Below are positions 12,205-57,721 of a DNA stretch of 64,000 bases, piece by piece (position 1 is the first letter of the stretch; each line of letters starts with the position of its first letter). The notes under the pieces are model-generated. The model had not been told where the DNA came from, made no database searches, and was given only the letters and a program-made list of their open reading frames with translations. The stretch spans positions 248,001 to 312,000 of the forward strand of contig NW_019091356.1 in assembly GCF_001949145.1 (NCBI RefSeq). Direction: 5' to 3'. Made by a program: the position numbers and the translations under genes. The DNA is from Acanthaster planci (Eukaryota).

Positions 12205-12508
12205 CTTGCTTGACATCGGGATCCATAGAAACCCTCTGGGCACCGATGTTCGCATGTGTGACCAGTTACATGTAATTTGCTAGGACAGGCACATGTCCCC
12301 TTGAAGCGGTCACAAAGGGATCCATATTGGCACAGACATGGTCGACTACAGTTGGGTCCATACCGCGTTCCATTGCATGGCTGAGTGCAATCCGGCCCGG
12401 TCCAGCCACGGCCACATCGACAACTACCGTCTTCCTTGTTACATTTCCCGCCATTTTGACAGCGGCAAAGATCTCGACAGTCTTGACCCCACGTTAGCTT
12501 CGTACACG
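12205..12508 (-). CDS. Gene A exon 3: first EGF repeats
   Basis: Acceptor tattgcag; (P)CTKLTWGQDCRDLCRCQNGGKCNKEDGSCRCGRGWTGPDC...CPEGFYGSRCQA; donor AG|gtagtt; phase 1 to 2. Confidence 0.92.
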
Positions 12509-18327: not shown

Positions 18328-18367
18328 ATGATTCCCCTATAAAAAGAATGATTCCCCTATAAAAAGA
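18328..18367 (+). repeat. Perfect 20-bp tandem duplication
   Basis: atgattcccctataaaaaga x2. Confidence 0.9.
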
Positions 18368-22690: not shown

Positions 22691-22773
22691 GTTTGGTGCA
22701 GTCGGGTCCTTTACGTCTCCAGCCAGGACAACATTGATATCTCGTCACATTTACACCGCTTTCATTTTGGAAT
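22691..22773 (-). CDS. Gene A exon 2: CCxGW motif
   Basis: Acceptor tttcccgtag; (T)FQNESGVNVTRYQCCPGWRRKGPDCTK; donor C|gtaagt; phase 2 to 1. Confidence 0.88.
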
Positions 22774-27954: not shown

Positions 27955-28000
27955 TTATTATTATTAGTTTAGTTTAGTTTAGTTTATTAGTTTATTATTG
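27955..28000 (+). repeat. (TTA)n/(TTTAG)n microsatellite
   Basis: ttattattattagtttagtttagtttagtttattagtttattatt. Confidence 0.8.
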
Positions 28001-30820
28001 ATATGAAATAATATACATGGTGGAAATTAAGTGGTCCTTGCTCTGCTAAAAAACAAAACAAAAACAATAAAATACAACATTAAACTACAATGAGTAGTTA
28101 CATGTAGTAACTTCTACTTCCCATACTCACTGTAGGTCTGCAAAAATTTGTAAAATACGGGGCCGACTTTTGCAATCTTCATTACTCATAGGCCCCTATA
28201 CATGTATTAATTTTTTTTATCGATGTGATAAAGTGCACGTGTAAACAGCTATTATCGAAGATTCTGCGCAATAATATGATCTAATAAGAGCTGAAATAAC
28301 TCACTAGAATTCAGTCACTTTATAGCTATGGAGGAAATCATAAACGGCAGTTTGACTCCAGTCATTACACACGCCTTAATGCTTTGAAAATCTCCTCCAC
28401 CCCTCCCCTCTCCCATCCACAAGGAATACTTCTATGTTACGAATCAGCTTACACAACGTGGAATATGTACACTAGTAATTAAAATGAACTTTTTGACTAG
28501 AGTCGAATAATGACTGTTAAAATCATAGCAAGGGAGAGTCTGAACAGTTACGAAAAGAAGAAATCACTCGTTCACAAGATGTTAACGTCATACCTACCTA
28601 TCATCAAGTCCTACCAGAGCTAGGACCTAATATTTTAATAGCAATTCCGGACAAGATTAATGCAGGTTGATCTACAAATTGGGTTTTAATCTCAACTAGT
28701 CTCCTTCACGCCCTAGATTACAAGCTCCCTTTTTGGAGGAACTAAAACACTGCCGTATTAACTTACTAATTACAATGTATGTCAGCAAGTTACTAGTTGA
28801 TTGACAACTGACGTTTTAGGCCTAAAGACTTTTATAAAACACTTTGAAATTAGCAACAGCATTGTTTTTCTCAAACCATCAGGATAAAGTGTCGTTCCAA
28901 ATTTGCAAAATGGTTAATGCATTTGCAATTAATTACGCTCCTCTACGGTGAGGAAAATGTGTGCTAGCATCAGACAACATAGAGGTAGAATATAGTATGA
29001 TAAATAGAAATACAATGCCTTAACCTTTGAAACAACAAAATCATTTACACCAAGGTATAGCGATAAAATCTTTTAAAAGTTCCCATTGAAGCCGGACATT
29101 TTGTTATCCAACTCAGGATCAAAGGATTCTCTGATGCAAGACCCACATGTGGAAGTCAACAGTGTTTATTTCTGGCGTTTGTGAAGGTTCCTTCCTCCAT
29201 TTTCTGCCTACGCATCCACAAAACAGGTGGGATACAGAACTTAAAAAACAACAAATATACCTGTGTTTGGAACAAGTCTAAATAGTTTCTGCGGTAAGAT
29301 AACAGAGCGATCGGAAGAACGTGAGTACATACATGTACATGTACCTCAACCATGTTGTTCGCAGTGCGAGAGCAAAGCCCCGTAAGTGACTGAAGTAGGT
29401 ATTGTACATGCAGACGCACATTGATAGCATATTTGTGTTACGTAATCGCGTAATAACAGTCATACCCTCATCACTGAAACTGTTTTTCCTAAACTGGGTT
29501 AGCGTGGAGAAATAAAACAGGACACAAAGTGTTGCCGTATGTGAGCTGTTGATTCCGTTGTGGTACTTCAATCTTCGGTCGTTTGAAGGAATTTCCCCGA
29601 CGCTCAGATACAGTACATAAGTACAAGGCTGGAGGAAAGAGTTCCTTCCTCCATGGTACAAGTTCTGCTTGATATCAAAACCAAAGCAAAAGTTTAACTA
29701 AGTAGAGTATAGGTCAAGGTAACGTGGAGAGATACAGGCTGCTTACTGCATTAAAAAATGCTAAAACGGCTTTTGTGATAAACGTTGTCGCTTTAGTGAC
29801 TAAATACGGTGCGGAATTCCCTCTTGTATCGCAGTCTAAATGAACTCCTTCAGAATGCAACAATCCTAAAGTCTTGAGTTAAGTCTGACGTCAAACTTCG
29901 ACTACCATCGAGACGTTCAGAGTGAAATATAATTTATCCCCTTACTAGACACTGAGAATGGACCATCTACAGTTGCCACACAGCTGACTAATTTTCTCTG
30001 ACCTTGACCAAAAAACTTTGATTATTCAACTTTATACATGTACACGTTTTCTCTGTATTTTTGTCAATCATGTCAATGGAATGAAAATGTTTGATATTTT
30101 CTGTTTTCCTTTACTAATCTACAATGAGATTACATGCAGACATACTCGTTCTGCATATTTTGCCCAAATTAAAAGGAGCCCACTGAAATGAGGACAATAT
30201 TTTACGGTTGTAAAAATTAAGAATCTTGTTAACGGACAGGACATAGCCTACTATCGAACTTGACTTCCTCAATCTAACTTTTCGGTCAGTGTCTTCAGAG
30301 TTTGGGAAAATACTCCCAGTTCCATCCTTTATACGTCACATCCAAAACAAACGGAATGGGTACACTGTCTTCCAATTTCTGCTTTCGTCGCACCCCTGGC
30401 TTTATAGGTTTGCTGTTCGTTTTACAAAATACAGCAAGGTTTTTTAAAAACTCGTAGAATGCGGGGGAATTAAATTACTGCAGACGTCTGAATTGATAAC
30501 CGGTAAAATAATTACCCATAAGCATATTCTCAGCGTATACATGTACATGCGCAAGCAATTTGGCATATTTGGGGGTCAATGAAGGGCAAAGTTTACACCT
30601 TCAAAATTAGATTAGCATAGTATATTTGAACCTTTTTCAGCATGTTCAAGGAAACAAACATTAATCCACTACTCCTGTTCACTTTTGTCACTTTTTTAAT
30701 TACTCCAATAACAAGTAAAGTTGACGATCTGACGATGCTGAGTCCTAATTTTAAAACAACAAACAATGTCATAAATGTGTTGGCGGATATGATACGAGTT
30801 TAAACACATGAGCTACTCAC

Positions 30821-30936
30821 GTGTAAGAGCAAACGTTCCTTCCTTCAGGATTCGGGTCACTGCAAACAGATGACACCAAGACCACCAAGAAAGTCAAAGT
30901 AACACCATACAATGTTGACAAAATCATATCTGCCAT
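30821..30936 (-). CDS. Gene A exon 1: signal peptide and start of the EMI-like cap
   Basis: ATG at 30936; MADMILSTLYGVTLTFLVVLVSSVCS-DPNPEGRNVCSY; hydrophobic core, then the family-typical GxNVC motif; donor AC|gtgagt, phase 2. Confidence 0.85.
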
Positions 30937-30939
30937 CAG

Positions 30940-31450
30940 GGAGCACCACTGAATGGGTCTGCCGTGTCCTCGACAATATTCCCCGTACAGTGAAGTTACC
31001 TCGTCCCGCTAAGCGTCTCCCCTACGCTGACGTGATACACTCCGCTTTGCATGTGGCCGAATGAGCAATGTGCAGAACAGTGTATGCAACAGTTCGTAAC
31101 GCTGAGCGAGTGATCCAGCTGAACACATGGGCATGCTGAATTAACAGTCAGCAGTGATTCGCTACATCCTTCCGTAGAGGGCTTGTGTGGGCTACCCGTG
31201 GGGCAGTTCACTCAATCACTGGGCCTTGCCCGTAGGGATTATGAGGCACGAAGGGGGAGGAGGCATAGCAAATCATCCCCTCGAGAATCGGCGAGCTATT
31301 GGGCTAAAACTGTGATTTTACTCAGGATACAAAATCTGACTCCAGCAAACGAGCGGCTCGCTCTTTACGCGTGCGCAGAGACGGAACACGAAAAGAACGC
31401 ATGTTTTAATCAGGCAAGTTTTGTTGAGACTGATATCAGGACGTTGTACA
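30940..31450 (-). promoter_or_regulatory. Probable 5' UTR and promoter of gene A
   Basis: Locally GC- and CpG-enriched segment directly upstream of the start codon; includes CRE-like tgacgtg and NRF1-like gcgtgcgc. Confidence 0.4.
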
Positions 31451-42275: not shown

Positions 42276-42589
42276 TCAGAAACCATCCCTTTTTGCCACA
42301 TTAGAGTTGGTCATCCTAGCGTTTCCACCGGCACTTGGTCGCTCCACATCTCTCTCCAACGTCACTGATGGTATCTCATATCCATCAGCATCTATTCCGG
42401 AGTACGTGGGGTTTTCAACCGTACCTGTCTGGACTTCATCGTAGATGTCGATGTATGAGTTGGGAGAGGGTTGAAATCGGGGATCATGGTCGACATCACT
42501 GCGTATAGTCTCATACCCTCCTAAGCTGTTGTTAGGATCTGTCACATCTCTTGTGAAAGTGGCTGGATTTCGGGGCAAAGGGGTTGGTG
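42276..42589 (-). CDS. Gene B exon 9: cytoplasmic tail with NPxY and Tyr motifs, stop
   Basis: (A)PTPLPRNP...GGYETI...SYIDIYDEVQTGTVENPTYSGIDADGYEIP...KRDGF then TGA; acceptor tgtaccgtag. Confidence 0.88.
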
Positions 42590-42983
42590 CTACGGTACAA
42601 ACGAATAGACAAACACCGATTCAAATAACTGAGGTTTATAACCAGAGTCTAAAAAGACACGAATTTTTTACTTTTTGTCTTTAAGATGGATGATCCTTAT
42701 CAATTCGATGCAGTTAAATGGCAACTTCCCAAAAATTTATTTGTATGTAAAGTATTGACATATTTATCAAACAGGTTTCAATGTGCTTATGCAGGATACT
42801 AAGGAACGTGTGTATCGATTGTCAATTCCAATTGCAATGAATTAAGACATGTATGTCAAACGGTAAACCAGACTTGGGAAGGAAAGGGGCTTATTTTATT
42901 TACCAGTTTTGGAATGTGCCATCGTATCCAGTAATATATCGTAACTTGAATCATGTCTAGTTTGCTGTCAGAATTGAACTCAC

Positions 42984-43108
42984 CTAAATCCACATTCCCA
43001 GCCTGGTATCTTATTGTACCGTTAGTATGAGGTACACTGCTCTGAAGGGACATCCGTGACATGGGGTTCGAAGTTCCGTTGGCTTGTGATACAAGTGCCA
43101 CACTTGGT
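42984..43108 (-). CDS. Gene B exon 8: short cytoplasmic exon
   Basis: (T)PSVALVSQANGTSNPMSRMSLQSSVPHTNGTIRYQAGNVDL; acceptor acgtacag, donor G|gtgagt; phase 2 to 1. Confidence 0.82.
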
Positions 43109-43544
43109 CTGTACGTTGTAAGGACAGCAATTATGAATAATCACCTGATATAAATAGCAGATGCATGGTCAAATGGGTGAGGGACGTCAAAATCCACCTG
43201 TTCCTTTATTGAATCCGCTGTTGTACTGAAAAATATATCTACGTGTACTTCTTCTTTGCCTGATTGAGTATATGGCTCCAAATAAATTTTGTACCAGCAA
43301 CGTGCCAAAGTTATCGAAAGTACTTAAAGAAAAAAAGGCACTCATTGATAATTTCCATTTTAAGTTTAAACATTTTGTCTAGACCTGTAGCTGATCAAGA
43401 GTTTTTATGCCCCGTTGTTTGCAATCCAAGAGGATACATAATTGTGTTACCATACTGCAGGAATTTTCTAGGTTTTTTAAACACGTCTTCTATCATCAAA
43501 GCAGAAAATAAAACTTCACATTTTAGTTATTTTAGTTTACTTAC

Positions 43545-43671
43545 GTATTTGGTTTAGGACGATTGTATTTACACAAGATGCACACGGCCGTGATAATAAT
43601 GGCGAACAACAGGAAGGCGACCGACGCGGCAATCGCTGCGATTACCCCAGGACTCAAATCCATGCCACTTT
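43545..43671 (-). CDS. Gene B exon 7: transmembrane helix
   Basis: (E)SGMDLSPGVIAAIAASVAFLLFAIIITAVCILCKYNRPKPN; acceptor ttttcgtag, donor AC|gtaagt; not in the ORF track. Confidence 0.9.
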
Positions 43672-43963
43672 CTACGAAAATACAAGAACAATGATTACGG
43701 AATTTCAAATTTTAATCCTTTCTTTTCTGTCTTTTCTGAGACTCTTCCCATGTTCACTTGACTCGACGAGAACGACAAAGGAACATGTCGCATAACCCCA
43801 AAAGAGAGACGCAAACAGAACCAGAGCAGAGAAGCTGATATCATGACCCCGAATCATCTCGAATAAATGTCGCCACATGCTGTCAACAATCTTGTTTTTT
43901 TATCAGTCATAATGAACAAGTCTAGACGATAAAATGTTGCTTTTACTTACCAAAAATTTTTAA

Positions 43964-43981
43964 AATAATAATAATAATAAT
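43964..43981 (+). repeat. (AAT)6 microsatellite
   Basis: aataataataataataat in a gene B intron. Confidence 0.8.
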
Positions 43982-44604
43982 CTTACCACAATCTCAATCA
44001 CTCCAATGGAACTATAGATGTAATGAGAGTTTAATTATCCTTTCGAAAGGCGAAACTGCGCGTCACTGTGTTCATTTAGAAGCTAGAGAAAATTCACATG
44101 GATATATGACGTCGTTTTCTGACGTCCCGATCAAATGCATGTATCACAGATGTAGATCTCTCTGTCACGCCTATCTCCGTGCGCATGGAAGACATTAGCA
44201 ATTTTATGGACACACTTCATTGCATTGTCGGTAATTGTCAAGTCCATGAACAAAACTAGTGAGATTCATTTGTATATAGAAGCATATTAAAACCTGAAAA
44301 CACCCGATGCTGTCGTGTACCTTACTGAATAGACGTTCTTTTCAAGACAAATTGGATTCATTTCCTTCAACGGATCTTCGGGGCTTGTTCCCCTATTAAC
44401 GGTATTACATAGGAGTAGTCGAGTTTGTGTAATGGAACTAAACTGACCAGGTTTGAAACTCATGCACACTTTACTCTCACAATAAATTAAACAGATAGGC
44501 CTACGCATTCCAGTGCACACAACGGTGCTTCTTGAGATCTAAAGCTGTAAATCTACTGTAGAGAAAGGGAACGATCAAGATGCCAAAAGATAATGTTTTC
44601 TTAC

Positions 44605-44708
44605 CTAAACAAGTTCCACTGATAGGCTCACATTGCTCGGATTCTGTACAGATGCACGTTTGGGAACAACTTTCACCCCAATGGTTGTCTTCACATGGTA
44701 ATGTACAT
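44605..44708 (-). CDS. Gene B exon 6: terminal half EGF repeat
   Basis: (L)CTLPCEDNHWGESCSQTCICTESEQCEPISGTCL; acceptor ctttcccaag (AAG type), donor G|gtaaga; not in the ORF track. Confidence 0.9.
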
Positions 44709-44996
44709 CTTGGGAAAGATACAAATTAGCAAGGAAAAACAGTTACACCAATTTTTTTTTTCTAATACTACAACATTTCCATCAACTCATGCAGTATGTT
44801 CATGAGAATACTTTTCATCCTTTTCACTTATGGCTGTGAATGATAATTGTTATGACAGTCTTTTAACAAAGAGGGCGCCATTCATGAAGCGCGTTGCACG
44901 ACAACGGAGATTGAGACATATGACTCCTGATATGGCCACAAAGTCACATTTCCACCATAATGCATTTCCAAAGCAATTACTGAAAAAAACACTTAC

Positions 44997-45441
44997 AATT
45001 TTCCCTTCCATCCCTTGGGACAGCTGAAGCAGGTGCCACCCACGTGATCACAACCATCATCTTCTGGGCAGTTACACTGCTGTTGACAATCATCACCAAA
45101 ATATCCCGATGGACACCGTTTATCACAGTAGTCCCCAACCCACCCAGGCAGACAGGTGCATCGCCCGTCCGTTGGTTGACAAGATGCTCCGTTGACACAC
45201 TGACAATTCTCCCGACAGAGATATCCTTGTGTGGCATTATCACAACTATGTGTGCAGTACCTCCCTCGCCATCCGTCTTGACATACACACCTGCCCAGGA
45301 TATTGTCACAGAACAACATCTCCGGGCTGCACAAACTACAGAAAGCAACGCTCCCGCTCTGGCAACTTGAATTGGTAGAGGAAGCCTGGCAGTTTGTTTG
45401 ACAAAGATCACCAGCAAAGTCGATCGGACACAGGCAGCTAC
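44997..45441 (-). CDS. Gene B exon 5: EGF repeats
   Basis: (G)SCLCPIDFAGDLC...CVNGASCQPTDGRCTCLPGWVGDYC...CPKGWKGK; acceptor tgttgacag, donor TT|gtaagt. Confidence 0.93.
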
Positions 45442-45576
45442 CTGTCAACAAAATAAAGGTAATGTGAATAAAATACTCCAGAGTTATAAAAATAACGAAA
45501 TAACTCAATGAACTATGACGAATTGAGACACTCTGGAACCTTCAGATCACAACAGATGTTCCATGATTTGGCTTAC

Positions 45577-45786
45577 CAGTGACTGGGTGACACGAACCGC
45601 CATTTTGGCAAGGACAAGAATTTCCACAATCATCTCCATACCAGCCATCTGGACATGTCCGCTCACAGTGCTGACCAGTCCAACCTGGCTTACAATCACA
45701 GGAACCGTTGGTGTGGTTACACTCACCGTCGTTCAGACAGTAACACGTCAAGGTACAATTACGGCCGTAAGTTAAGGCTGGACAAA
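45577..45786 (-). CDS. Gene B exon 4: EGF repeats
   Basis: (V)CPALTYGRNCTLTCYCLNDGECNHTNGSCDCKPGWTGQHC...CHPVT; acceptor ttgtgtag, donor G|gtaagc. Confidence 0.93.
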
Positions 45787-46240
45787 CTACACAAGGTTTT
45801 GGAAATGGAAAACGATAACAAAGCATGAAAAGACACCGATAAATAACAATTACCAGATCAAACTTCTAAAGGGGAATGGTGATTTACTGCTTACCGTTAA
45901 TTATTTTTTAAAACATTCAAAGCTAAAATGTGGCAAAGATATTCAACAAGCCGCTTCTCAAATGAAGCGAACCAGTCTTTCTATTCCTAAAGCAGATAAC
46001 AACCGACAGGTCATCGCACTTTAAAAAGTGTCAACAAAACTGTGCAACTTTTAGTGATGAGCCCTTTAATGGATTTGTGGAAGAAGAACTGGATCACACC
46101 AATAACCCACAGAAATTGGTCCTAGCTCTATGACTAAACCCAAGACAAGGAGTGGCAGTCAAGTCCTCTAGCCATCCGAGTTCCCAATCCACCTGTGGAT
46201 TTCATATTATCCGATTTCATGTAAAATTGGAATATCTTAC

Positions 46241-46335
46241 CTTTTGGACAGGATTCACCCTCCTGCAAGAACCCATCACAACATCCGTAACTCTTCACCC
46301 TCAGGTACAAATCAGGAGCAGAGATAACGCCTGAC
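46241..46335 (-). CDS. Gene B exon 3: EMI end with CCxGF
   Basis: (R)SGVISAPDLYLRVKSYGCCDGFLQEGESCPK; acceptor tgtgtcatag, donor G|gtaaga. Confidence 0.88.
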
Positions 46336-46529
46336 CTATGACACAAAACTGAAAACTTTTAACACCTGTATGGGTTATCATAACCATTCACATTTAGAGT
46401 AATCTTATGATTTGCATGCCATAATATGTACCCATGTCATTGAACTTTAAAATAAAGCATTAATCATCCTTATATGAAATAAGGCTAACTGCTCAGAAAC
46501 TACATAATACGCCCACTGTTTGCCCTTAC

Positions 46530-46619
46530 CTGAGAGCATGGCACGTCGCAGAAGGGTAAAACGAGTCACACTCGTCCATCAGTTCACCTTCTGTCTTGTA
46601 ACTGGTTGCCAAATCTAAG
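46530..46619 (-). CDS. Gene B exon 2: EMI middle (two Cys)
   Basis: Acceptor tatttag; (S)LDLATSYKTEGELMDECDSFYPSATCHAL; donor AG|gtaagg; phase 2 to 2. Confidence 0.75.
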
Positions 46620-46968
46620 CTAAATACGTGTACAAAAATAACTCCTTGGTGATTGTCACTGACAATGGTTCATAATAAAAGAACATAGTTTGTAAACCCA
46701 TGGGTTACCAGTCAAAATTGTCGGACACTCAGGTACCCCCTTTTCCACCCATCTATTGAGTTTCTTAATGTCTGGGATTTTATAGTGAATGAACAAAATA
46801 GGCCTGACTTTCAACATAATCCTTATGAAACCTGTGAAACCTAAATCAAGCATTCAATTTCACAGGTGAGCAAATGGTCGAGTTTTTATCCCCACCTACC
46901 TATCCATTCCCTTTCCCCCACTCCCCCCGGGCAACTGCTATCTCAAACCTACATGAACAAATACCCAC

Positions 46969-47216
46969 CTTATTTTAGCACACACGTTTACTTCATCGTG
47001 GATTAGACCAAACGGATTGACGAAAATCCATGCTGCTTCAACTTGTTCATGATCTGACGACAATATCTCTGATTCAGATAAGCAAAGAGTTCCATGTGCC
47101 AAGAGTAAAGCAGTGGCAATGTGATGTAAAACGTCCCTTCTTGTGTGACAAGCGTGAACAGCCATGTTGACAATGGTAAAAGATGTTATGGGCATTTCAA
47201 AGAGGAAGCATGTCAT
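46969..47216 (-). CDS. Gene B exon 1: leader/signal region and EMI start
   Basis: ...HIATALLLAHGTLC-LSESE...DEVNVCAKI; donor AG|gtgggt, phase 2; start ATG is 47216 or the in-frame 47165; an acceptor ttcacttcag just upstream suggests a non-coding first exon. Confidence 0.7.
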
Positions 47217-50200
47217 CCGCTGAAGTGAATGAATTCTGCTTTATCTTTGTTCCCTTCTGGCTATCCACTTCCTCGAATTCAATTTTGAGGATGTTATGAA
47301 CCCAACATCAAAGCAGTCATTTCAGTAGAACATCGAAATAACGTACAGTGGTCCACGTTGCACAACTGAAGCATTTTGTCTAGTCGTAACAGTCGTCGTA
47401 TTCCACGGGTAAATTTCAAGTTCACTCTACTAACACCACTGATTCGAGAACAGGCGCAGAGTCAGAGGTTCAAAAGTATTTCCGAATTTTCAGTTCTGTT
47501 TAGAACCAAACGCCTAATTCCCGTCCTTGGTGTATGCTGAAAATGGTAGGCCTTAGTATACAACAAACACGCAATTGTTAGGTCATGCTTGGTCACTACA
47601 TGCATCAATGACCATCATACTGGTTACCCTTTGTTGTTCAGCTACAAAACTGTTCTGATCAAAACATACATATTCATGAATAAGATGACTCACTACTGGG
47701 TAGATGATATGGATAGCAAAGTCTTCATCTTTGTGTTTTTACGAGGGCATGTATTGGAGCTGAAATTTGCATTGACGCAAATAGCATTCATTGATCAATA
47801 CCAGCAATGTTCAGCTTGAAAAGGAAAGTTAGAGTAGAGAACAATAATTCTATTCAACCATGTTTCTGAGAAAAAACGGTCGCCCTCAACAGACCACAAA
47901 GACTTCAGTAACCGATATGAACATAAATCTTCCGTATGAATGGCAACGTGGTTTTCAAAGGAAATTATAATGATGTCACCTTCAACACAGGAAATGAAAA
48001 CACTACATGGTAGGGGACGAAAACTGCTCGGGCATGCACTCAAAGTCCTAATCTGTGGAAACATTCCACTGAGAGTCTTGCACTATTCATAATTAAATCC
48101 GGAACATTGTCAAAGAGTGTTTCTGCTCATCTTCCAAAGAGTCACAGTGCATTAAACAATTGAGATTTTCAGATAACATTATCTATCCTGACTTTTGGCT
48201 TAGTTAAAACGCTACGAATAAATTCAAATCACTTGGAGAAATGAACTTCATGCACTTCTTGCTAACTAGAATCAAAGATATAAATGGCTGCTCTGTTACT
48301 GTGCATGCATGAAAAGGCCATGCATACTCGAAAAGCTAACCATATCATTTTAGATGGCGACCTCACTTTGAATTGGCTTAGCAAATTCTGGAGCAGCGTG
48401 GAGCAACATTTGAACTATATAGCGCCCTCGTCACAACGTTAATCTGGCTTAAACACTGATTTGTACCCATTTCTGTTTCATGTAGGCTAACCGTAGGTCA
48501 AAGATGGATTGTAAAGTGATGTGAGTCTTTCTAGCTTACAACTATACAATGACATTTGCATAATTTGATCTTAATCTGGTGGTCACATGTTATATTTTGC
48601 TGAATTGTTGGGCCACGTGGCTTCCAAGAAAAGTTTAAGCAGTGTTCACTCCATGTTTTTAGGGAAAATAAAATAAACAAAATATTCGCAACAAATTCAA
48701 TAATACGTTTTCCACCAACAATATAATCTGGATTACGATTTCTAGATGGTCTATGAAATCCGATCTAATCTTGCTAAACTGAACGATATGAAATTTCATC
48801 GTGTTCTAAAGTTCTTCAAGCATTTTGTCTTTTATTAAATCAGGTGCACTTTTATTATTTTTTCCAGTAACTTACGATTGTCAACTTGCAGAAATTCTTT
48901 GATGGAAATTCCTATCCTATCCTATCAACAGTTCTGTTATGCTAGAGATGTAGTTTTGTAATCTTGGAACAGAGCAGTTAAAGTCATGAATAAAACAATT
49001 GGCAGTGAAAACCCACTGAATGACACAAACAGGAAACGGAAACCAGCGAAGATCCTGATAAAGTTGATTGTTCTGGGTTCCAGTTTGTGAGAGACCAACC
49101 TTTAGTACACGGTTAGCTTACAATCAAGAGACACCACTCAACCTACTTCCCGATTAAAGTCAATATGACACAGAACATTCACGTTCCTCGGTCGGCGTTT
49201 TTTTTTAAACTTTGGTTTTATTTACCTAAGTTTAGGGTTTCAACATGGTGATGACAAGCTGTCGGGTTCTAATATCCGTCCAGAGCGTTTCGTCATTATA
49301 TCAGAAAAGGGATGCACTTATCCGCAAGCATTATGGCCGTCAATTAACCTGAACACGTTCTTAACTTTAAGCAGAAATGTATCAATTTATGCGTATGGCA
49401 AAAACTGTCTCTTCTGCTTCGCGTATATGAGAAAAACTCATTAAGCCTTCCACACTGTTTAATTAACATGAAAGAACTCCTTTACGGAACATGGTTTCTT
49501 GCCCGAGCATCCTTTGGCGCAGCTTTCCACGTCAGTAATATTTTCTACGAAGGTTTGATTCGCTGATTTCCATACATTCTTGAAACTGATGTAATATTAA
49601 GGGTGCCGAGAGAGAACAAAAATACTTCGCAACAAATGTCAGCAACTAAAAAAATGTAAAAATACGTCAGCGCAGTTGTAATATCAGCGTTTAATCCGGA
49701 CTCAACAAAAATAGACACTTATGCCACTATTTCTAATTATTTAAAGGTTAGATTTGTAACTGATGGATTAAATACAATTACAAGTACATGTATGTTATGC
49801 TTCATTATATTTCAATTCCAGCAAAGTTAAAAGCTTTTTTAAAAAATATTTCGATACTCGCCAGCATTTAAGTATGAATTAGTCAAAGCTCTTTTAAATT
49901 AATTCACCAAGAAGTTACTACTTTTGTTTATTTCGAATGGCACATAAATTCATATTGCCAAAAAAGTTATAGTATACTTCATAGCCTCGGGATAAAACAG
50001 CTTTGAATTATTTCGAAATACAGTCTATATTCTACAGGACTCCGTCGTCTTCGCTGCAATTCAAAGTCAACTTTGATTTGGCATTATGTTATAAAACTTC
50101 TAGAATTTTTGTAACTGATCATTTAGAAAATATCATGACATTTCCACAGGCACAGTTTTTCAGTCTTTCCGTCCATTATACGGAAAACTAGCAAAAAGAG

Positions 50201-52641
50201 GAGATACCGTTGCCCTAGATAAATGGAAGACAATAATTCATTAGTATCTAATTACTTAGTTTCTGAGTTGGTCATTGACGTCTTATTAAAACACTCCTAA
50301 TTTGAGGATCTCCTCGATATCATTAAACATTAACTTCAGTGCTTTTCCCTGTATTATTGGAATAATTAGCACAAGAACAAAAGAGGCAAACGTCTTAAAA
50401 AGCTGACAAGTTGAACGAAATAACGAAAAGTATACATTTACATGTATATTGATATAAATCCGACAGTACATGAAGCGATATAAGCAATCTGAGACTGGAC
50501 ACAAAACGTGAAAATACAAAAAATTAGTGTGAACTCTCCCTTTTTCATCCGGAGATTTGCTTGAAAACTGACGAGAAAATGAGTACACGTGCTACAAACG
50601 CTCAGAATTGCCTTAAAGGACAAGAAAATGGTGAAGCATATGACCCGCGGTTACACGTGGAGTTCTTGTGACACATCCCAAAATAAGTATACATGCATTG
50701 TAATGGCACTGTGACAGCAGATTGGACAACTGTCAAATGACGATGACTTCAGAGCATGAATCTTGGGACAGACCTGTGATTTTACTTACTTATACGGGTT
50801 GGGTTTGTACCATGCACGGTGTTTGATTCACACAAACCGGATGGACCGAGGGTGTTTGTTACTAAAAAGCCAGCAATTACGCTTCCGTCATACGCATTGC
50901 TCATTCCCTAATGATAAAAGGCAGATTACATGGACTGTCTCCAGGCAAACAAGAGTCGGATTACTTAGTCTGGCAGGATTTTTCTGGAGGGAAGAAACTT
51001 GACATATTGCCAAGCGTCAAGGTTAAATGCTACGCTACTAAATCAAGGTAGGAAGCCATATTTGGACAAATCAGAATGCTTCCCTTTTTCCTCACAGCAA
51101 AATGCAGAGTGGTTTTACCGTATACGTTGAGAATTGTCGTCATTATTGACACGTGCATAAAATAATACTTAGACAACATGTATACAGACACTGAACACTA
51201 AGAAAAAGGTCTAGTTATGGTTTCTTAGCGACACACTGCATTGCGAACTCTTTCTATTGCATCAATTTAGTTTAAATCCACCATAAGGTGAAAAATATTA
51301 CACTCTTCAATTATTCAGTATTGCAGATTATGGCATTAAACAAAACTCGAGCAACAAACAAAACGATTGATTATTATACTAAGTAAGGTAATCTATGTGA
51401 GTTGTGATTTAAAAAATGGTTAATCAACAAGAGTGAGTCCATAAGGAATGTCCTCAATCACACGATCATAAAATTCTCTTGTGATATCTTCGCCTATCAC
51501 TGTCACGAGAGTTCACTGCATTATGGGTCGTTATATAATTTATCTGAGATTACGGTATGATTGATATTTAGATCACACGAACTAATTCATCAAGTTAAAT
51601 TTTAACCTTGATATTTTGGACAACCGATCTACAAATACTAGAAAGGCTGCAATCGAACACTTTTTCAATAGCATACAATATTCCTAACTACAGCTAAAAA
51701 TTAGAGGACCGAAATGTGGTAACATTCTCCCGTTTTAACCTCAAGTGAAGAAACATGCAGTAGTGTACGGTCTTGACACGTGTTACAACAACCATGCTAC
51801 AGTCCATTTTATACCATAATATATCGCTGCTGTTTTAGCCAGTAACTGAACAAATTTTCTTTTAATATGTCTTACTAGTCCACAAGCAAACCCTAGTAAT
51901 GGCCAAAAATAGTAAAAAACTAAAGATTACGTGACTAATCGACCGCATTTTTTACATGATTTGCACTTACGTTCCATTTGAGGAAACAACCTTCACATAA
52001 CCTGTATGTAAACAGTTCTACAAAATTTCTAGTATGAAAATAACTGAGCCGGGAAATACGTTTACAAAAAGCATTAATTATTGACACTTTGTCAAGTTCA
52101 CTTATTGTACTTCCTTTTGCCAAATACAAGCACATTGCGTTTTGCACATTGTTGATGCTTGGTAAAATACATAACACTATAATGACGAGAAATAAAAAGG
52201 AATTGGCATTTCAGAGCCCAAGATGGCTTCCATAATATAATAGCTACACTGCAAAAGCATTTTCCATTAAATTAGGAAAAAGAACCTTGAAGCCACGGGT
52301 GACAATAATTTCCCGTAAAATTTACACTCACCGTAATTACAAACTTAAAGAGTAAGACAACTGATGACTTAGGCCTATCCTTTACTTGCTCATACATTTG
52401 ACAGAAAATCGTTGGCTCTCATAGCTTCCAAATTATCTGTCGTAAATTCACGGGATTTCGTTTTACAATTTAAGAGCATACTTTGATCTGTTTGTATCGC
52501 AAATGTTCCAGAACCGAAGCAAACAATAAAGACAATGACAGGAGTTGTACATTGCTCATCTACCGATTGTCTAGACTGTTTCCACTCTAGAAACATTTAT
52601 TGCAACATTTAGGAACACTGCACAAGTGGTAAAGAAAACTC

Positions 52642-53894
52642 TTAATTACCACCTGTGGGCGTGTTCTCATACAATGGACAAGTTTCTTCAAACTGTAGAG
52701 GGCAGGTGTTACCATACCTGACTGGGGGCGTATCGTAAACAGGTCTGAGCCCAACCAAGGGGGACGTCGGTTCTTCAACGCTGGCCCGCTGCATCATTTT
52801 TTGAACAGCAGGGGGCGTATCATACACGGGAGTGGCAACTTTCTGCTCGGGTGATTTAGGCAAGATGTCGTAAACCTGTGCACTAGGCATGCGAGGTGTT
52901 CCTGGCAGAACATCGTAGACAGGACGCACGACCGGAGGTGAAAATGCTGAAAGGTTATGATCGGTATTTAAAGCTTGTTCGTGATTCTCCAAGCCCGAAG
53001 CTGGCATTTTCAGAGTAAGTCCTTCAGGGACATTCTTCTTTGGGAGGTTCTCGTAAATTTCCCCGTCTGCCGGTTTCTTCATTTCAATGGCGTCATACTG
53101 GTTCGTGCCTAAGTTACCGTTCGGTATGCCGTTGAGAGTTCCATTTCTATTTCCTGAATCATTCAAGCCATGTTCAATGGAGCATCGTCGAGCCAGCTTG
53201 TCATAGTCCGTTGATCGACCCTGTGCACCCAATTCATCGTATGTATTCAGTCCAACGATACCAGTTTTTCTCTCAGAATCGACACCGTGGGCTTCGTGTC
53301 GTTCAAGCTTATCGTAACCAAGGTGACTCTCAGGACCAAGTGTCGAATAACCAGGAGCTGCTGGTATAGGCGTGTCCAACTGATCGTCTCTAGTAAGGTG
53401 GGATACACCACGCTGTCTGTCCAGTTTGTCGTATGGGCCTTGTTCTGTGGTCGGTCCTATGATGATCATATTGTATGCCTCATCGTCTGGATCTGTGGGG
53501 ATATTTCCACCCATGGTGTCGAATACCTCTGGCGCCTTGACGACTGTATCCAACCCGGGTACGTTCTGATATGGCGAAACTACCTCCTTACTCTTCTCTG
53601 CGTCGCATGTTTTCGAGAACACAGCCCCGTTTGGTCCTAGGCGAATCTCTATGCCGACTTTCTTCATTTTTGGTGATCCGTCACTAGCTTCACTGGGCGC
53701 ATCTCCACAACTTGTAGCCTCTTTGAGGTCCTGATATGTGTTTGAGAGACCAGACGGCTGTTTAGTGTTTATGAAAGCAATGTCGTAGTCGTCGAATGAC
53801 ACGTCTTTTGTGCGGGTGCTGTTTGCTTGATCCCCTGCAGCATTAGTATGGCCTTCACGGTCTGGTATTTCTGTGTAAATGTCCGGGGTTGGAG
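52642..53894 (-). CDS. Gene C exon 6: long tyrosine-motif-rich cytoplasmic tail, stop
   Basis: Acceptor ttcttccatcag; (A)PTPDIYTEIP... runs in frame into ORF 52642..53802; 18 Tyr, mostly in YxxL/I/V, YDxP or YxN contexts. Confidence 0.9.
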
Positions 53895-54363
53895 CTGATG
53901 GAAGAAAAAAATGATTACTTGAACATTATACATTTCGGGAAAGCTTATGGTTATATTAGATCACGGAGCTTTAAAACCAAGAAACTCTAGCAAACTATGA
54001 TATACAATAAACGAAAAATAATCCCACAGTAACAAGAAAACACTGCAGGTATACAATGCAGTAACTATGTCTCCAAGAAAAACACTACTCTTTGCTAATT
54101 CAGAATTAAGTTTAACAAGGAAGCACATAGGCCTACTTCTGTTTATCTGAAAAGTATATTTAAATTTAGTGAAAATAACTCATTGTAATTAACAAAGAAC
54201 TATTTAAAATATCAAGACCCTCAAAGATAATGCGTAAAAACAAGACATACAAGAGGCAAGTCTAATGCTAAGATTTTACGGGAAAGGGGAATTTGATTGG
54301 ACGTACATTAAAGAAAAACTCTGTCTAGGATACTTTGTTCATCATGATGAAGGAAATTCCTAC

Positions 54364-54422
54364 CTCGACCGGGAGAGTTGGCATTTAATAACTGAAAGAC
54401 AACTGCAGGATCGGACTTTCGC
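54364..54422 (-). CDS. Gene C exon 5: short cytoplasmic exon
   Basis: Acceptor ttttgcttccatag; (R)RKSDPAVVFQLLNANSPGR; donor G|gtagga; the only good phase 2 to 1 bridge I found between exons 4 and 6. Confidence 0.65.
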
Positions 54423-55544
54423 CTATGGAAGCAAAACGTCAAACAATTTTGTCAGTTTTGATGTATTTATTTACTGGGGGAAAGTTGGTCACATACATGT
54501 ACGTTTGGTTTAACGCGAATCGCATGAAATTGCTTCCATAATCACTCCGAGGTAATTTTGACCAACCTTTGGGATTTTCATATTGACACAACTTTTAAGA
54601 CTTTCTTAAAAACAATGGATTATTTTATCCCCTTGTCTGGAACAAAACATTGCAGAAATCGCTACGCTTTTGATAAACGAAAAACAACATGGAAGCGTAT
54701 TCTCTCAGTGTCAACAAATATATCATTTACATTTGCGACATTTGCTGCATCCCATCAATATACCTCTCAATCATTGATTTAGTCGATGATATTGAAAGGC
54801 AGTGGTGTATCAACAAGGGGGGACAAGCCCCTCCGTTTTAAGTATTTGAAAGTACCAGCATTTTAGACACGGTAGGGCCTACCATTACCTGATCTTAAGA
54901 AATTCTCTTGTGAACAAAAAATCTAGTTTGCCCCTGCAACCAATATGCCACTGTCGAATTGCTCTTTGTGTGGACAAAGGGAGCAAGACTAAAAGCGATG
55001 TAGCGACATCCTCCGCTTATCAACTCGATATGCCGTGTCAAAGCAGTCCTAAAGGCTGGAGATTTTGTTAGCTTAATTCTTGCTTTTTCCGCTTCCAGTA
55101 TGACCATTTCCTTCCCTGTTATTCAATTAAAACCAAGTCTAACCCTGAAGCAGTTAATTTATTCGATTACCTGGAGTAAAAACAACTTATGTAAACCTAT
55201 ACCTGGAGCTTGTTTTATGTTCAGAGTTCTTAGACCTATTTCACTCATTAAAGTAACATCGATTATTACTATGCTTAATAAAGACAAACGGGAAGCATTA
55301 TGTCGTTTTTCTAGAGTTTAATTCCATTTTGTACGAGTGTTACCATGAGATATTCCACCTTTATTTGTTTCCTGTGATTGTTATAATACAAACACACGTA
55401 TTTCATTAATGCTGTGCATGTATTCACTTCACTTTGTTCCATTCATTATTACTTTCCCATAGCAATCATGTATGAGACAATGCAAACTATGAGCTAATCA
55501 TCAAAATATAACTGCTTAGTCACAAAAATAAAGAGCGTGCTTAC

Positions 55545-55893
55545 CGCCTATCTCTTGCTTGACGTTTTCTCTTTGTAACAAAGACGACAACCAGTGACAC
55601 TAAGACGACAAAAGCTACTGCCACTCCAACCAAGCCACCGATCATCCCAATATGTTCACCATCTGTCGGAGACCCCTGTGGTGACTCCCCACCCTTTCCC
55701 AGGGTCCTGGGCCCATCAACCTTCGAGATATTCCCTGGAGGCGATCCAGAGACAGTTCCAGATACAAAGGATGGTGACGAGGGTGACCCCTTTGGGACGA
55801 AAACTGCTGTGTCGTTGGAGAGCGTAGGCGTGGTTCCATCGACCTTGGAGGGAGTCAAGGCATCCGTCAGCTGTGATTGAGTTGTTATTTCCT
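55545..55893 (-). CDS. Gene C exon 4: S/T/P/G-rich stalk, TM helix and basic stop-transfer segment
   Basis: (E)EITTQSQLTDALTPSKVDG...IGMIGGLVGVAVAFVVLVSLVVVFVTKRKRQARDR; donor CG|gtaagc; phase 1 to 2. Confidence 0.88.
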
Positions 55894-56281
55894 CTAATTT
55901 TAGGAAAATAGGACCCAATGAATGCAAAATGGAATGAATGTTCACGTTTTCTTTAATGCAAGCACAGTAACCCCACGACCACGTTTTTATCTCCTTTTTG
56001 ACAACATATTTATCAAAAACTTACATATTCCAAAGATACATTCATGATATGATATCCAGTTGAGTACCATCCCAATCATAACGAACAACATTAATTAATT
56101 TCTCTCTCATTTCTCTGTTTTTAAAATGCGATTCATCTTTGTAGAGTAAAGTCAGTAAGTTTGAATTCTTTAAATCATTTGGTATTTCGCCAGAAGAATA
56201 GGTTTGGGAATGACTCAAATTGCTTGCTTGTAATGTCTCAGTTCTTCCCGAGTTTGGCTCCTTATTCAGTTCTTAAGTTAC

Positions 56282-56397
56282 CTGATGTATTTTGTAGACA
56301 TGATCCGTCAGACTGCATCACCCAACCGTTACAGCAGGTGAATACGATGTTGTAACTATCACGGTAAGCTACTCTCGTCTGAGTAGAGTACACAACT
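56282..56397 (-). CDS. Gene C exon 3: EMI end with CCxGW
   Basis: (R)VVYSTQTRVAYRDSYNIVFTCCNGWVMQSDGSCLQNTS; acceptor cattattag, donor G|gtaact. Confidence 0.9.
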
Positions 56398-56818
56398 CTA
56401 ATAATGAAGTAGGGAGGAACATTCATCGACAATAATGATTTCCAATTTATGGTGTGGATATAAATGTACACCATTGTGCTTGTATATAAAAAAGGCTACG
56501 GAATGCAAAGAATTTTATCAGAAAATGGCACAATGTAAACACACAGAGTATGATTTAATCGTTGAACTTAAAACAATAAGTGGTCAAAATGTTTCCTGGA
56601 AATGCATCAGGTTCGCATATATATGAAAGAGCAAACAAAGGAATTCTATCATTTTTTATTTTTTCCTAATTCTATGCGACCATTATGAGAATCTACAATC
56701 AGGTAAGTCCCAGCCCAGTTCAATTATTAAAACATCATAACTATAGGGTTTCTGCATTACTTATTTTTAAAACGAGTTAGTTGGACTATGTAATCCTAAA
56801 GAAAGCCTTCCAACGTAC

Positions 56819-56917
56819 CTGTAACGCGTGCACCGTGACAAACCCCAAATTCCACATTTCGAGTAGGATTTATGGGATCTTGAAACCTGATAAGTTTCTT
56901 GATATGTCACCGTTGCT
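56819..56917 (-). CDS. Gene C exon 2: EMI middle
   Basis: (R)ATVTYQETYQVSRSHKSYSKCGIWGLSRCTRY(R), resembling the MEGF10-type EMI pattern (V-x-x-QESY...C...W..C.R.R); acceptor cacaacag, donor AG|gtacgt; not in the ORF track. Confidence 0.9.
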
Positions 56918-57578
56918 CTGTTGTGAAGGCGATTGAAGAGAAACACAGAAATAGTTTAGATAAAGTCACTACTGTCACAATAAAAACATTCGTGACCATT
57001 AGAAACCGTCAAAGATCGCTCACAGGAAATAACCTTTTCAAAACATTCAACTAACATTCAAACATTTATGAACTTTTAAATACTGTCACTTATCTCCAGT
57101 AGTTTAAACAACCTGGACACAGTAAATAAGAAAAGGTTTGTTGGAAAGATAAGGAATTGTATGGGATGAGAGTAAACTAAAACACAGTTGCTTTTAGAAT
57201 TGTGGTTGCAGGGGACAACAAACTATGAATAGAGAACTGGAAGGTATGGAGGAATCAAATACGTATTTCAGGTTAAGAGAAATTTTATTCTCAATTATCA
57301 TGGAGAAGTATTTAACAGTCATTATGTGAATTAATCAACCAATAAGAATCTCTTCTTCCCCTTTCTTTGCTTTCGTAACTCAGACCCTTCAAATCAACCG
57401 TATTTCATTTCCAATACCAAGATAGAAATTTCAATACTTTTCGAATAACTAGTAACGCTGAGAAAAGGCTTTCATCATCTTAAAATCCAATCTAGTAATT
57501 AATCTTTGAATTAAGCAATTAATTAATTCATCACTGAAATTGAAAATAATTAACTACATTTGTTTAGATTGGGCCTAC

Positions 57579-57721
57579 CTTTCGACACTGGAACACAGCC
57601 CAATGTTTCCATCAGTTTGCGCCGTAGACAAAATCACGCAATTCAAAACTGTGATTACGAAGAAAATCTTTCCAAAACAAGCACAGTGTCGTGCGATTCC
57701 GTGGAGACCGGGCCATTCCAT
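57579..57721 (-). CDS. Gene C exon 1: signal peptide and first EMI Cys
   Basis: MEWPGLHGIARHCACFGKIFFVITVLNCVILSTA-QTDGNIGLCSSVE; donor AG|gtaggc, phase 2; an acceptor tttatcag 2 nt before the ATG implies an upstream non-coding exon. Confidence 0.8.

What the first reader, a model, noticed from the sequence alone, without database searches (positions are those of the whole stretch)
52642..57721. EGF-less receptor: an EMI domain mounted directly on a mucin-like stalk
Seen: the CCNGW exon (ending phase 1 at 56282) is separated from the stalk/TM exon (starting phase 1 at 55893) by only 388 nt with no Cys-rich frame. The roughly 85-aa stalk is S/T/P/G-rich and contains an internal SKVDG repeat. 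Established: membrane EMI receptors of the CED-1/Draper/MEGF class carry EGF or NIM arrays after the EMI domain. Inference: the EGF array was lost or replaced, giving a single-domain-on-mucin-stalk design reminiscent of TIM-family architecture but with an EMI head. I know of no characterised receptor with this architecture.
Basis: partly seen in the sequence, partly recalled or inferred. Interest (0 to 1): 0.8.

Follow-up and report, generated by a model that had tools for sequence, protein, structure and literature searches.

The report
Starfish EGF-less EMI receptor with ITAMs
This starfish gene is spliced and expressed and encodes a predicted membrane receptor whose single EMI domain sits on a short stalk without the EGF repeats of its known relatives, and whose conserved tyrosine-rich tail likely signals like an immune or engulfment receptor; similar unstudied proteins are predicted in other echinoderms and in bivalves.

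Summary
The six-exon minus-strand model is letter for letter RefSeq XP_022084855.1 of Acanthaster planci (672 aa). RNA reads join the EMI exon straight to the stalk/TM exon in 4 of 4 runs (20 reads), and no joint to EGF exons is listed. Pfam EMI passes its cut-off; no EGF is found. EGF-less orthologues exist in two Asterias species and probably a brittle star.

Also unmentioned: two EGF-bearing receptor genes with EMI-like heads lie next to it.

The design is not unique: 10 of 37 library hits have EMI, a Cys-free stalk and a TM segment (starfish, brittle star, urchins, oyster). 'EGF array lost' is plausible but unproven, and the TIM likeness is only an analogy. The predicted tip loop of the EMI hairpin varies within and between starfish species, a lead for a recognition site.

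Best reading: a minimal Draper/PEAR1-like signalling receptor; ligand and cell type untested. New variant of a known kind; interest 0.5.

The parts
57579..57721 (-). Coding exon 1: start codon, hydrophobic signal-peptide-like segment, first EMI Cys (C43); ends in phase 2
   Evidence: joint 56917/57579 in 4 of 4 runs. SignalP was not available; signal peptide inferred from hydropathy and the aligned ..A-QT.. site in Asterias
56819..56917 (-). Coding exon 2: EMI strands and the C69-C77 loop; phase 2 to phase 2
56830..56856 (-). C69-C77 aromatic loop, predicted tip of the EMI hairpin; three amino-acid-changing variants in RNA reads (56850, 56846, 56840)
56282..56397 (-). Coding exon 3: end of the EMI domain with CCNGW and C114; ends in phase 1
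55894..56281 (-). 388-nt GT-AG intron between the EMI and the stalk; no EGF-like frame
55545..55893 (-). Coding exon 4: S/T/P/G-rich Cys-free stalk (to about 55652), transmembrane segment (about 55648-55574), basic stop-transfer stretch; phase 1 to phase 2
54364..54422 (-). Coding exon 5: juxtamembrane segment, similar in Asterias and Amphiura; ends in phase 1
52642..53894 (-). Coding exon 6: long cytoplasmic tail predicted to be disordered, holding all 18 tail tyrosines, and the stop codon
53305..53349 (-). ITAM-spaced pair 1 (Y438 to L452), kept in both Asterias proteins and P0002
53194..53241 (-). ITAM-spaced pair 2 (Y474 to L489), kept in both Asterias proteins (9-residue spacing) and P0002
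52660..52917 (-). Distal tyrosine cluster: two YDxL, two YDxP and a terminal YEN motif
   Evidence: binding partners recalled, not tested
49700..52641 (-). Long unspliced transcribed stretch after the stop, probably a 3' UTR of about 2.9 kb (end approximate)
   Evidence: read depth; polyA-like hexamers at 49932 and 49695
42276..47216 (-). Neighbour gene B (context): 585-aa model with a divergent EMI-like head, a short EGF array, TM and a tail with 7 Tyr including NPxY; transcribed separately
4626..30940 (-). Neighbour gene C (context, model incomplete, 5' end uncertain): CCPGW exon near 22700, very long EGF exon 7897-11349, TM exon near 6300
   Evidence: middle EMI exon not found; no RNA was laid here

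Best explanation
This is an expressed starfish gene for a predicted single-pass membrane receptor whose only folded outside part is one EMI domain on a Cys-free stalk, and whose conserved tyrosine-rich tail likely signals through Src-family and Syk-type kinases as Draper and MEGF10 do. SHOWN: the splicing, the expression, the EMI domain, the absence of EGF repeats and the conservation of the tyrosine motifs. PREDICTED: a long two-stranded EMI hairpin with an aromatic loop at its tip, a flexible stalk, one TM helix and a disordered tail. INFERRED, step by step: (1) the stalk, probably O-glycosylated, lifts the hairpin off the membrane; (2) the tip loop binds a ligand on another surface, most likely an anionic membrane such as that of a dying cell or microbe, or a multimeric matrix or bridging protein; (3) binding clusters the receptors; (4) Src-family kinases phosphorylate the tail; (5) Syk or Shark-type kinases dock on the two ITAM pairs, with Grb2- and Nck/Crk-type adaptors on the YxN and YDxP sites; (6) the cell remodels actin and engulfs or becomes activated. 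Origin is probably loss of the EGF block from a MEGF/Draper-type ancestor (about 0.55), but this is unproven.
For: Joint read in 4 of 4 runs. Pfam EMI 33.5 bits against a cut-off of 25, no EGF family at E<=1. Six Cys at identical positions in three starfish. AlphaFold with 24 sequences: EMI blocks at pLDDT 91-96, strands 42-69 and 75-102, helix 201-239, stalk and tail mostly under 50. 12 of 18 tail Tyr are in YxxL/I against 1.9 expected (0 of 5000 shuffles reach it). Two pairs at 6-8 spacing against 0.02 expected (p=0.0006). 17 of 18 Tyr are kept in A. amurensis against 185 of 428 other tail residues. Both ITAM pairs (6-9 definition, PMC9546547 passages) are kept in both Asterias proteins. A sea star egg transcriptome holds Src-family kinases, Syk, HTK16, Grb2 and Cbl (PMC11593052 passages). 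EMI heads carry function in relatives: NimA adhesion needs it (PMC13076899), LOXL2 binds the PEAR1 EMI (PMC11324313 passages), and the MEGF10 EMI affects adhesion and is predicted to bind phosphatidylserine (PMC13751773 passages). The nearest Atlas clusters are MEGF10, Draper and PEAR1 types, at lead level only (0.83 and below). Same-strand EGF-bearing neighbours share exon phases with it.
Against: No ligand, phosphorylation, cell type or phenotype was tested. The tail lacks NPxY, which Draper, CED-1 and MEGF10 carry (PMC8092387 passages). The shortest studied relative, NimA, did not promote phagocytosis in three assays. The probable brittle-star orthologue has 22 tail Tyr but no strict ITAM, and the urchin and bivalve EGF-less proteins have none, so ITAMs are a starfish feature here. 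YxxP (2 against 1.8 expected) and ITIM (2 against 0.65, p=0.14) are not enriched, and ten patterns were tried. The net charge of the head is +5 here but only +1 in A. amurensis, which is weak for lipid binding. No BLASTP similarity to neighbour B; EMI tree unresolved.
Confidence: 0.55

Rival explanations
1. It is an adhesion or contact receptor of the NimA/PEAR1 kind: the EMI head holds a neighbouring cell or matrix, and the tail stabilises the contact through tyrosine signalling without engulfment.
For: NimA, the shortest EMI receptor studied, aggregates cells through its EMI domain and is not phagocytic (PMC13076899). The MEGF10 EMI promotes surface adhesion. No NPxY here. The gene is expressed in all 4 runs laid, including one with no reads on neighbour B, which fits broad expression.
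Against: Two conserved ITAM-spaced pairs point to Syk-type activation; NimA is described as having no known motif beyond conserved tyrosines. Tissue identity of the runs was not given, so breadth of expression is not established.
Confidence: 0.28
2. It is a polymorphic self/non-self or pathogen recognition receptor whose variable tip loop sets specificity, an echinoderm analogue of ITAM-bearing allorecognition or paired immune receptors.
For: RNA reads carry three amino-acid-changing variants within 11 nt of the tip loop (I71F, W72L, L74W) in about half the reads of 2 of 4 runs. A. amurensis and A. rubens differ at 3 of 7 loop residues against 28 of the other 673 (p=0.003; within the EMI p=0.017). 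ITAM-bearing allorecognition-complex genes exist in Hydractinia.
Against: Only two loop forms were seen, at low depth, with 40 of 96 variant rows shown, no matched DNA and phase not shown; the reads could come from a paralogue or a sibling species. Two urchin pairs show no loop difference (0 of 2 and 0 of 1 differences). The Asterias test used a region chosen after seeing the first variants. The gene is not in a large array of close paralogues in this window.
Confidence: 0.12
3. On origin only (independent of function): no EGF array was ever lost; a mobile EMI module was grafted onto a transmembrane tyrosine-scaffold gene, perhaps more than once.
For: Similar EMI heads cap adhesion GPCRs, a VWD/EGF protein and EGFL7/8-like proteins. 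The EMI exon ends in phase 1, as does the exon before the TM exon. The best tree needs 3 changes of the EGF-less label. No similarity to neighbour B.
Against: The gene sits in tandem and on the same strand with two EGF-bearing TM genes that have EMI-like heads. A and B share the phases 2/2/1 in the head and 1/2/1 around the TM exon. One origin of the EGF-less set is not rejected (p-AU 0.29). An urchin EGF-less group keeps NPxY.
Confidence: 0.4
4. It is an artefact: EGF exons are missing from the assembly, or the EMI exons really splice to neighbour B's EGF exons.
For: Depth is low (2 to 11 reads on the joint per run), joints under 3 reads are not listed, and 9 loose-end rows were not shown. 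No independent DNA was laid across the intron.
Against: Reads cross the joint directly with up to 73 letters on the short side; none of the 14 listed joints links A to B; depth is near zero at 47840-49107. Independent genomes of two Asterias species give the same EGF-less model. The window has no N.
Confidence: 0.02

Closest known systems
Drosophila NimA (PMC13076899; passages and section 11 read)
   Same: N-terminal EMI domain, very short ectodomain, single TM segment, unstructured tail with conserved tyrosines
   Different: [quoted passage not shown]
CED-1 / Draper / MEGF10 engulfment receptors (PMC8092387, PMC13751773; passages read)
   Same: Six-Cys EMI head, single TM segment, ITAM or YxxL motifs in the tail
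   Different: They carry long EGF/NIM arrays (17 in MEGF10) and an NPxY motif; both are absent here, and this tail has 18 tyrosines
PEAR1 (PMC11324313; passages read)
   Same: EMI head that can itself bind a ligand; clustering receptor with a phosphorylated tail
   Different: 15 EGF-like repeats; its YxxM PI3K site (recalled) has no match here
TIM-1/TIM-4 family (features recalled; no paper read, look-up failed)
   Same: One head domain on an S/T-rich stalk, single TM segment; an aromatic tip loop is a possible analogue of the membrane-inserting loop
   Different: The head is EMI, not IgV; no metal-ion lipid pocket shown; analogy only
Hydractinia Alr proteins (PMC9546547; passages read)
   Same: Invertebrate single-pass receptors with ITAM-bearing tails
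   Different: Ig and Fn3-like ectodomains and a large gene family; no homology
Uncharacterised EGF-less EMI-TM gene models (XP_072019829.1 Amphiura; XP_030855402.1 and XP_030829445.1 Strongylocentrotus; XP_071482973.1 and XP_072174215.1 Diadema; KAK3084734.1 Pinctada)
   Same: EMI or EMI-like head, Cys-free stalk and TM segment
   Different: Tails differ: Amphiura is tyrosine-rich without a strict ITAM, one urchin group has NPxY, the bivalves have almost no tyrosine; their splicing was not checked here

Membership tests
EMI domain (Pfam PF07546) | Score above the curated cut-off | tested here: met
   33.5 bits against 25, residues 42-106
EMI domain (Pfam PF07546) | Single N-terminal domain with six conserved Cys and a CCxG(W/Y/F) end | tested here: met
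   C43, C69, C77, C102, C103, C114 invariant or nearly so in 24 sequences; six-Cys type as in MEGF10
EMI domain (Pfam PF07546) | Fold matches a solved EMI structure | tested here: inconclusive
   Confident hairpin model; PMC11990869 states that no EMI crystal structure is available
CED-1/Draper/MEGF10/PEAR1 receptors | N-terminal EMI domain | tested here: met
CED-1/Draper/MEGF10/PEAR1 receptors | Array of EGF-like repeats after the EMI domain | tested here: not met
   No Cys in the stalk, no EGF family, direct splice
CED-1/Draper/MEGF10/PEAR1 receptors | Single transmembrane segment | tested here: met
   Hydropathy peak 3.2 at 207-225 and AlphaFold helix; prediction only
CED-1/Draper/MEGF10/PEAR1 receptors | NPxY motif in the tail | tested here: not met
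   0 in P0001, P0002, P0003, P0004
CED-1/Draper/MEGF10/PEAR1 receptors | ITAM or YxxL motifs in the tail | tested here: met
   (motif level)
CED-1/Draper/MEGF10/PEAR1 receptors | Descent from the family (tree position) | tested here: inconclusive
   77-column tree, 13 of 29 inner branches open, no named MEGF10 or Draper row included; Atlas leads only
CED-1/Draper/MEGF10/PEAR1 receptors | Mediates engulfment | not testable with these tools
   needs a cell assay
Nimrod superfamily | NIM repeats C-terminal to a CCxGY motif (PMC4073527) | tested here: not met
   CCNGW is present but is followed by one Cys and a Cys-free stalk
TIM family | IgV head domain (recalled) | tested here: not met
   Head is Pfam EMI, no Ig family at E<=1; predicted two-stranded hairpin
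TIM family | O-glycosylated mucin stalk (recalled) | tested here: inconclusive
   S+T 30% here, 40% in Asterias; no tandem repeat; no glycosylation predictor available
TIM family | Phosphatidylserine binding by the head (recalled) | not testable with these tools
   needs a lipid-binding assay
ITAM-bearing receptors | Yxx[I/L]x(6-9)Yxx[L/I] in the cytoplasmic tail | tested here: met
   two, at 438 and 474, both kept in Asterias
ITAM-bearing receptors | Phosphorylation and Syk/Shark recruitment | not testable with these tools
   Syk and Src-family transcripts exist in a sea star; binding untested

The most novel reading that the evidence does not exclude
This gene is the ITAM-bearing member of an undescribed invertebrate class of single-EMI receptors in which the EMI hairpin alone is the recognition unit and its fast-changing aromatic tip loop sets specificity: a non-Ig counterpart of TIM-type or allorecognition receptors, used by starfish to tell self, dying self or microbes apart.
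Probability: 0.14. Interest if true: 0.8.

Novelty: new variant of a known kind. Interest (0 to 1): 0.5.

Why it matters
In the EMI receptors I could read about (Draper, CED-1, MEGF10, PEAR1, NimA) the EMI head always comes with EGF or NIM repeats, so what the EMI domain does alone has been probed by deletions and isolated fragments. This gene is a natural, conserved, expressed EMI-only version with a strong signalling tail. It gives a direct test of whether EMI is enough to recognise dying cells, microbes or matrix and to fire ITAM signalling. It also points to an unannotated group of receptors in echinoderms and bivalves (one is labelled 'endochitinase A-like' in RefSeq) and to a candidate binding loop that varies in nature. 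If it proves to be a plain adhesion molecule, the value is mostly annotation.

Tried and rejected
1. No whole genome is held for this window, so paralogues elsewhere and synteny were not checked.
2. A word-based search with the ectodomain found only the protein itself, 1 of 3233 candidates. It missed even the Asterias orthologue, so it says nothing about absence. The alignment search found 4 of 7990 scored, adding Mercenaria P0078.
3. PDB sequence searches gave no EMI hit. One search had one TM match at E 2.7. One search hits were EGF domains drawn by EGF columns in that alignment, an artefact. One search matched stalk and TM stretches only.
4. The first AlphaFold run with 3 sequences was unusable (pLDDT 32).
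5. Foldseek against the PDB gave 0 matches at E<=0.001. The weak rows are long beta-hairpins of pore-forming and ring proteins, rejected as shape coincidence. VIA-align was filled by the TM helix (best Z 5.0) and did not test the head.
6. The EMI homodimer job gave no answer, neither support nor evidence against.
7. The EMI tree (33 rows kept of 55 stored heads plus gene B; near-copies left out) was unresolved. Three one-clade tests gave p-AU 0.29, 0.33 and 0.125.
8. Gene C's middle EMI exon was not found.
9. A second read lay with DNA contigs across the intron was not obtained, so independent DNA continuity and rare isoforms stay open.
10. The run search listed no holder on record as RNA; the raw-read runs were laid instead.
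11. The SKVDG repeat was rejected as functional because it is not conserved.
12. Literature: ten searches found no paper on an EGF-less EMI membrane receptor; six accessions gave 0 papers. The library lacks most subscription papers. Callebaut 2003, Somogyi 2008 and Tung 2013 were seen only as citations and may list such proteins. No supplements were read; starfish expression tables could hold this gene. PMC10381214, PMC4805362 and PMC12549020 (passages) added nothing decisive.
13. Three look-ups of earlier findings were empty.


Full report
The observation. A search with the last exon returned this protein letter for letter as RefSeq XP_022084855.1, 'uncharacterized protein LOC110976128' of Acanthaster planci. 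The CCNGW exon ends at 56282 in phase 1 and the next exon starts at 55893, 388 nt away. No stop-free stretch of that intron has more than 3 Cys. An EGF profile made from 24 repeats of a neighbouring gene scores nothing within the gene while scoring the neighbours' repeats at up to 38 bits. Pfam finds EMI at residues 42-106 (33.5 bits, cut-off 25) and no EGF family at E<=1.

RNA test. Raw reads of four runs from three studies were laid on 41500-60500, reading about a fifth of each run. The joint 55893/56282 appears in 4 of 4 runs (3, 2, 4, 11 reads; up to 73 letters on the short side). Three other introns appear in 4 of 4 runs, and 56397/56819 in 3 of 4. None of the 14 listed joints links this gene to the EGF exons downstream. 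Depth is near zero at 47840-49107, and one run has reads on this gene and none on the next. Limits: joints under 3 reads are not listed, 9 loose-end rows were not shown, and no second lay was obtained, so a rare isoform is not excluded.

Conservation. Asterias amurensis (680 aa) and A. rubens (685 aa), from another superorder, have the same layout with six Cys at the same positions and no Cys in the stalk. Identity to A. amurensis is 43 of 84 in the EMI region, 25 of 83 in the stalk and 202 of 446 in the tail. The stalk keeps its composition (S+T 30% here, 40% in Asterias) but not its sequence; the SKVDG repeat is absent there. 'Mucin-like' is a statement on composition; no tandem repeat was found and glycosylation was not tested.

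How rare is the design. A profile search of 1.84 billion representatives gave 37 hits. Ten of the 37 have an EMI or EMI-like head, a Cys-free stalk and a TM segment: P0001, P0003, Amphiura P0005, Lytechinus P0007 and P0013, Strongylocentrotus P0009 and P0016, Diadema P0014 and P0030, and Pinctada P0024. Pfam does not call the Pinctada head at E<=0.01, and it was part of my own profile. Mercenaria P0078, not part of that profile, scores 49.5 bits. The Amphiura protein is the probable orthologue: it aligns over residues 19-293 (E 6e-15) and shares the juxtamembrane segment, but its tail similarity is weak (E 0.03). Other hits put similar EMI heads on adhesion GPCRs, EGFL7/8-like proteins and amphioxus EGF proteins, and some hits match only stalk and TM. 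The Atlas adds leads below its bar: an arthropod cluster with EMI in 84% and an EGF family in 13% of 62 members, and three mollusc clusters without a Pfam family. These are database gene models; I checked splicing only for the window's gene.

The tail. It holds 18 Tyr in about 446 residues. Twelve lie in YxxL/I against 1.9 expected (0 of 5000 shuffles reach 12), two pairs have ITAM spacing (p=0.0006), and YxN (4 against 1.0) and YDxP (2 against 0.14) are mildly enriched. YxxP and ITIM are not enriched, and NPxY and YxxM are absent (ten patterns tried). Seventeen of 18 Tyr are kept in A. amurensis against 185 of 428 other residues. Both ITAM pairs survive in both Asterias proteins by the 6-9 definition of PMC9546547 (passages). 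Against generality: Amphiura has 22 Tyr but no strict ITAM, an urchin group has NPxY and no ITAM, and the bivalve tails have one Tyr. A sea star egg transcriptome contains Src-family kinases, Syk, HTK16, Grb2 and Cbl (PMC11593052 passages). The Grb2 and Nck/Crk preferences for YxN and YDxP are recalled.

The head. With 24 sequences AlphaFold gives a confident two-stranded hairpin (strands 42-69 and 75-102, block pLDDT 91-96), a low-confidence stalk, a helix at 201-239 and a disordered tail. The C69-C77 loop forms the turn, far from the domain's ends. Such loops are aromatic across the set: 31 of 32 distinct loops hold W, F or Y, with W at 14% against 1.7% elsewhere (6 of 55 heads not matched by the pattern, one loop mis-picked). 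RNA reads carry three amino-acid-changing variants in this loop (I71F, W72L, L74W). They occur in 3 of 7 reads of X16 and 9-10 of 16-19 reads of X19, and in none of the 2 and 3 reads of X12 and X15. The two Asterias species differ at 3 of 7 loop residues and at 28 of the other 673 (p=0.003). This is a lead only: 40 of 96 variant rows were shown, phase and matched DNA are missing, a paralogue or sibling species could explain the reads, and two urchin pairs show no loop change.

Neighbourhood and origin. Two more genes follow on the same strand. Gene B, built from the RNA joints, is 585 aa with a divergent EMI-like head, a short EGF array, a TM segment and a tail with NPxY. Gene C has a CCPGW exon and a 1151-codon EGF exon with 213 Cys; its model is incomplete. 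A and B share intron phases 2/2/1 in the head and 1/2/1 around the TM exon, so removing B's EGF block would give A's exon plan. But BLASTP finds no similarity between A and B (best E 0.93), and B's head scores only 10 bits on the EMI profile. The 77-column tree is unresolved, rejecting neither one origin of the EGF-less set (p-AU 0.29) nor an A+B clade (0.125) and showing neither. Loss of an EGF array is therefore the likelier story (about 0.55) but not shown; grafting of a mobile EMI module is nearly as good.

How it most likely works. A stalk of about 85 residues, probably glycosylated, holds one EMI hairpin out from the cell. The tip loop likely binds a surface or multimeric ligand, clustering brings in Src-family kinases, and Syk-type kinases and adaptors read the phosphotyrosines to drive actin remodelling, engulfment or activation. 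Architecture and motifs are shown; the fold is predicted; ligand, phosphorylation and outcome are inferred from Draper and MEGF10 (PMC8092387 passages) and from evidence that EMI heads carry function in NimA, PEAR1 and MEGF10. The main rival is NimA-like adhesion without engulfment (0.28), favoured by the missing NPxY and by NimA's lack of phagocytic activity.

Comparison with what is known. It is an EMI-domain protein. It works like, but by the tested features is not a member of, the CED-1/Draper/MEGF10/PEAR1 or Nimrod families (no EGF or NIM repeat, no NPxY). It is not a TIM protein (no Ig head; TIM features recalled). Of 17 human EMI proteins tabulated in PMC11990869 (section 33), four are membrane-located: MEGF10, MEGF11, PEAR1 and UMODL1. 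MEGF10 has 17 and PEAR1 15 EGF repeats; that the other two carry EGF domains is recalled. Ten searches of the held library found no description of an EGF-less EMI receptor, and none of six accessions is cited. The founding EMI and Nimrod surveys were not readable and could mention such proteins.

Verdict. A real, expressed, conserved and apparently undescribed variant of EMI-headed receptors, not a one-off and not a new kind of system. Its worth is as a natural minimal receptor for testing what an EMI domain does alone, with a candidate variable binding loop. Interest 0.5; the boldest reading (a class of single-EMI recognition receptors with a specificity-setting tip) has probability about 0.14 and would rate 0.8.

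Noticed in passing
window 42276-47216 (-): Gene B: 585-aa receptor with a strongly diverged EMI-like head, a short EGF array (46 Cys), TM and a tail with NPxY; all 8 introns seen in RNA, with an alternative acceptor 4 nt away at 45437 in a few reads; silent in run X12 where gene A is expressed.
   Followed up: partly
window 4626-about 30940 (-): Gene C: MEGF-like gene with one 3.4-kb exon (7897-11349) encoding about 27 EGF-like repeats by Cys count, a TM segment and a Ser/Thr-rich tail with few tyrosines; the middle EMI exon was not found and the link to the candidate first exon near 30900 is unproven.
   Followed up: partly
window 56840-56850: Three clustered amino-acid-changing variants in the EMI tip loop in about half the RNA reads of two runs.
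   Followed up: partly
window 49700-52641 (-): About 2.9 kb transcribed after the stop codon, with 11 ATTTA words and many variant sites; probably a long 3' UTR.
   Followed up: partly
P0018, P0021, P0022 (Amphiura filiformis proteins): Adhesion GPCRs with an N-terminal EMI domain, an architecture I do not recall from vertebrates.
   Followed up: no
P0009 cluster (S. purpuratus XP_030855402.1 and others): RefSeq names these EMI-stalk-TM proteins 'endochitinase A-like', although Pfam finds only EMI; likely a mislabel from the S/T-rich stalk.
   Followed up: no
P0013, P0030, P0053, P0072 (sea urchin proteins): EGF-less EMI-TM proteins with a His-rich repeat between signal peptide and EMI domain.
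   Followed up: no
P0024 (Pinctada), P0078 (Mercenaria): Bivalve single-pass proteins with a divergent EMI-like head that Pfam misses and a tail almost free of tyrosine; possibly the large unnamed mollusc clusters seen in the Atlas.
   Followed up: partly
window 39193-39348 and 25889-26055: Two inverted repeats (57-nt arms, 84%; 48-nt arms, 92%) of MITE-like size.
   Followed up: no
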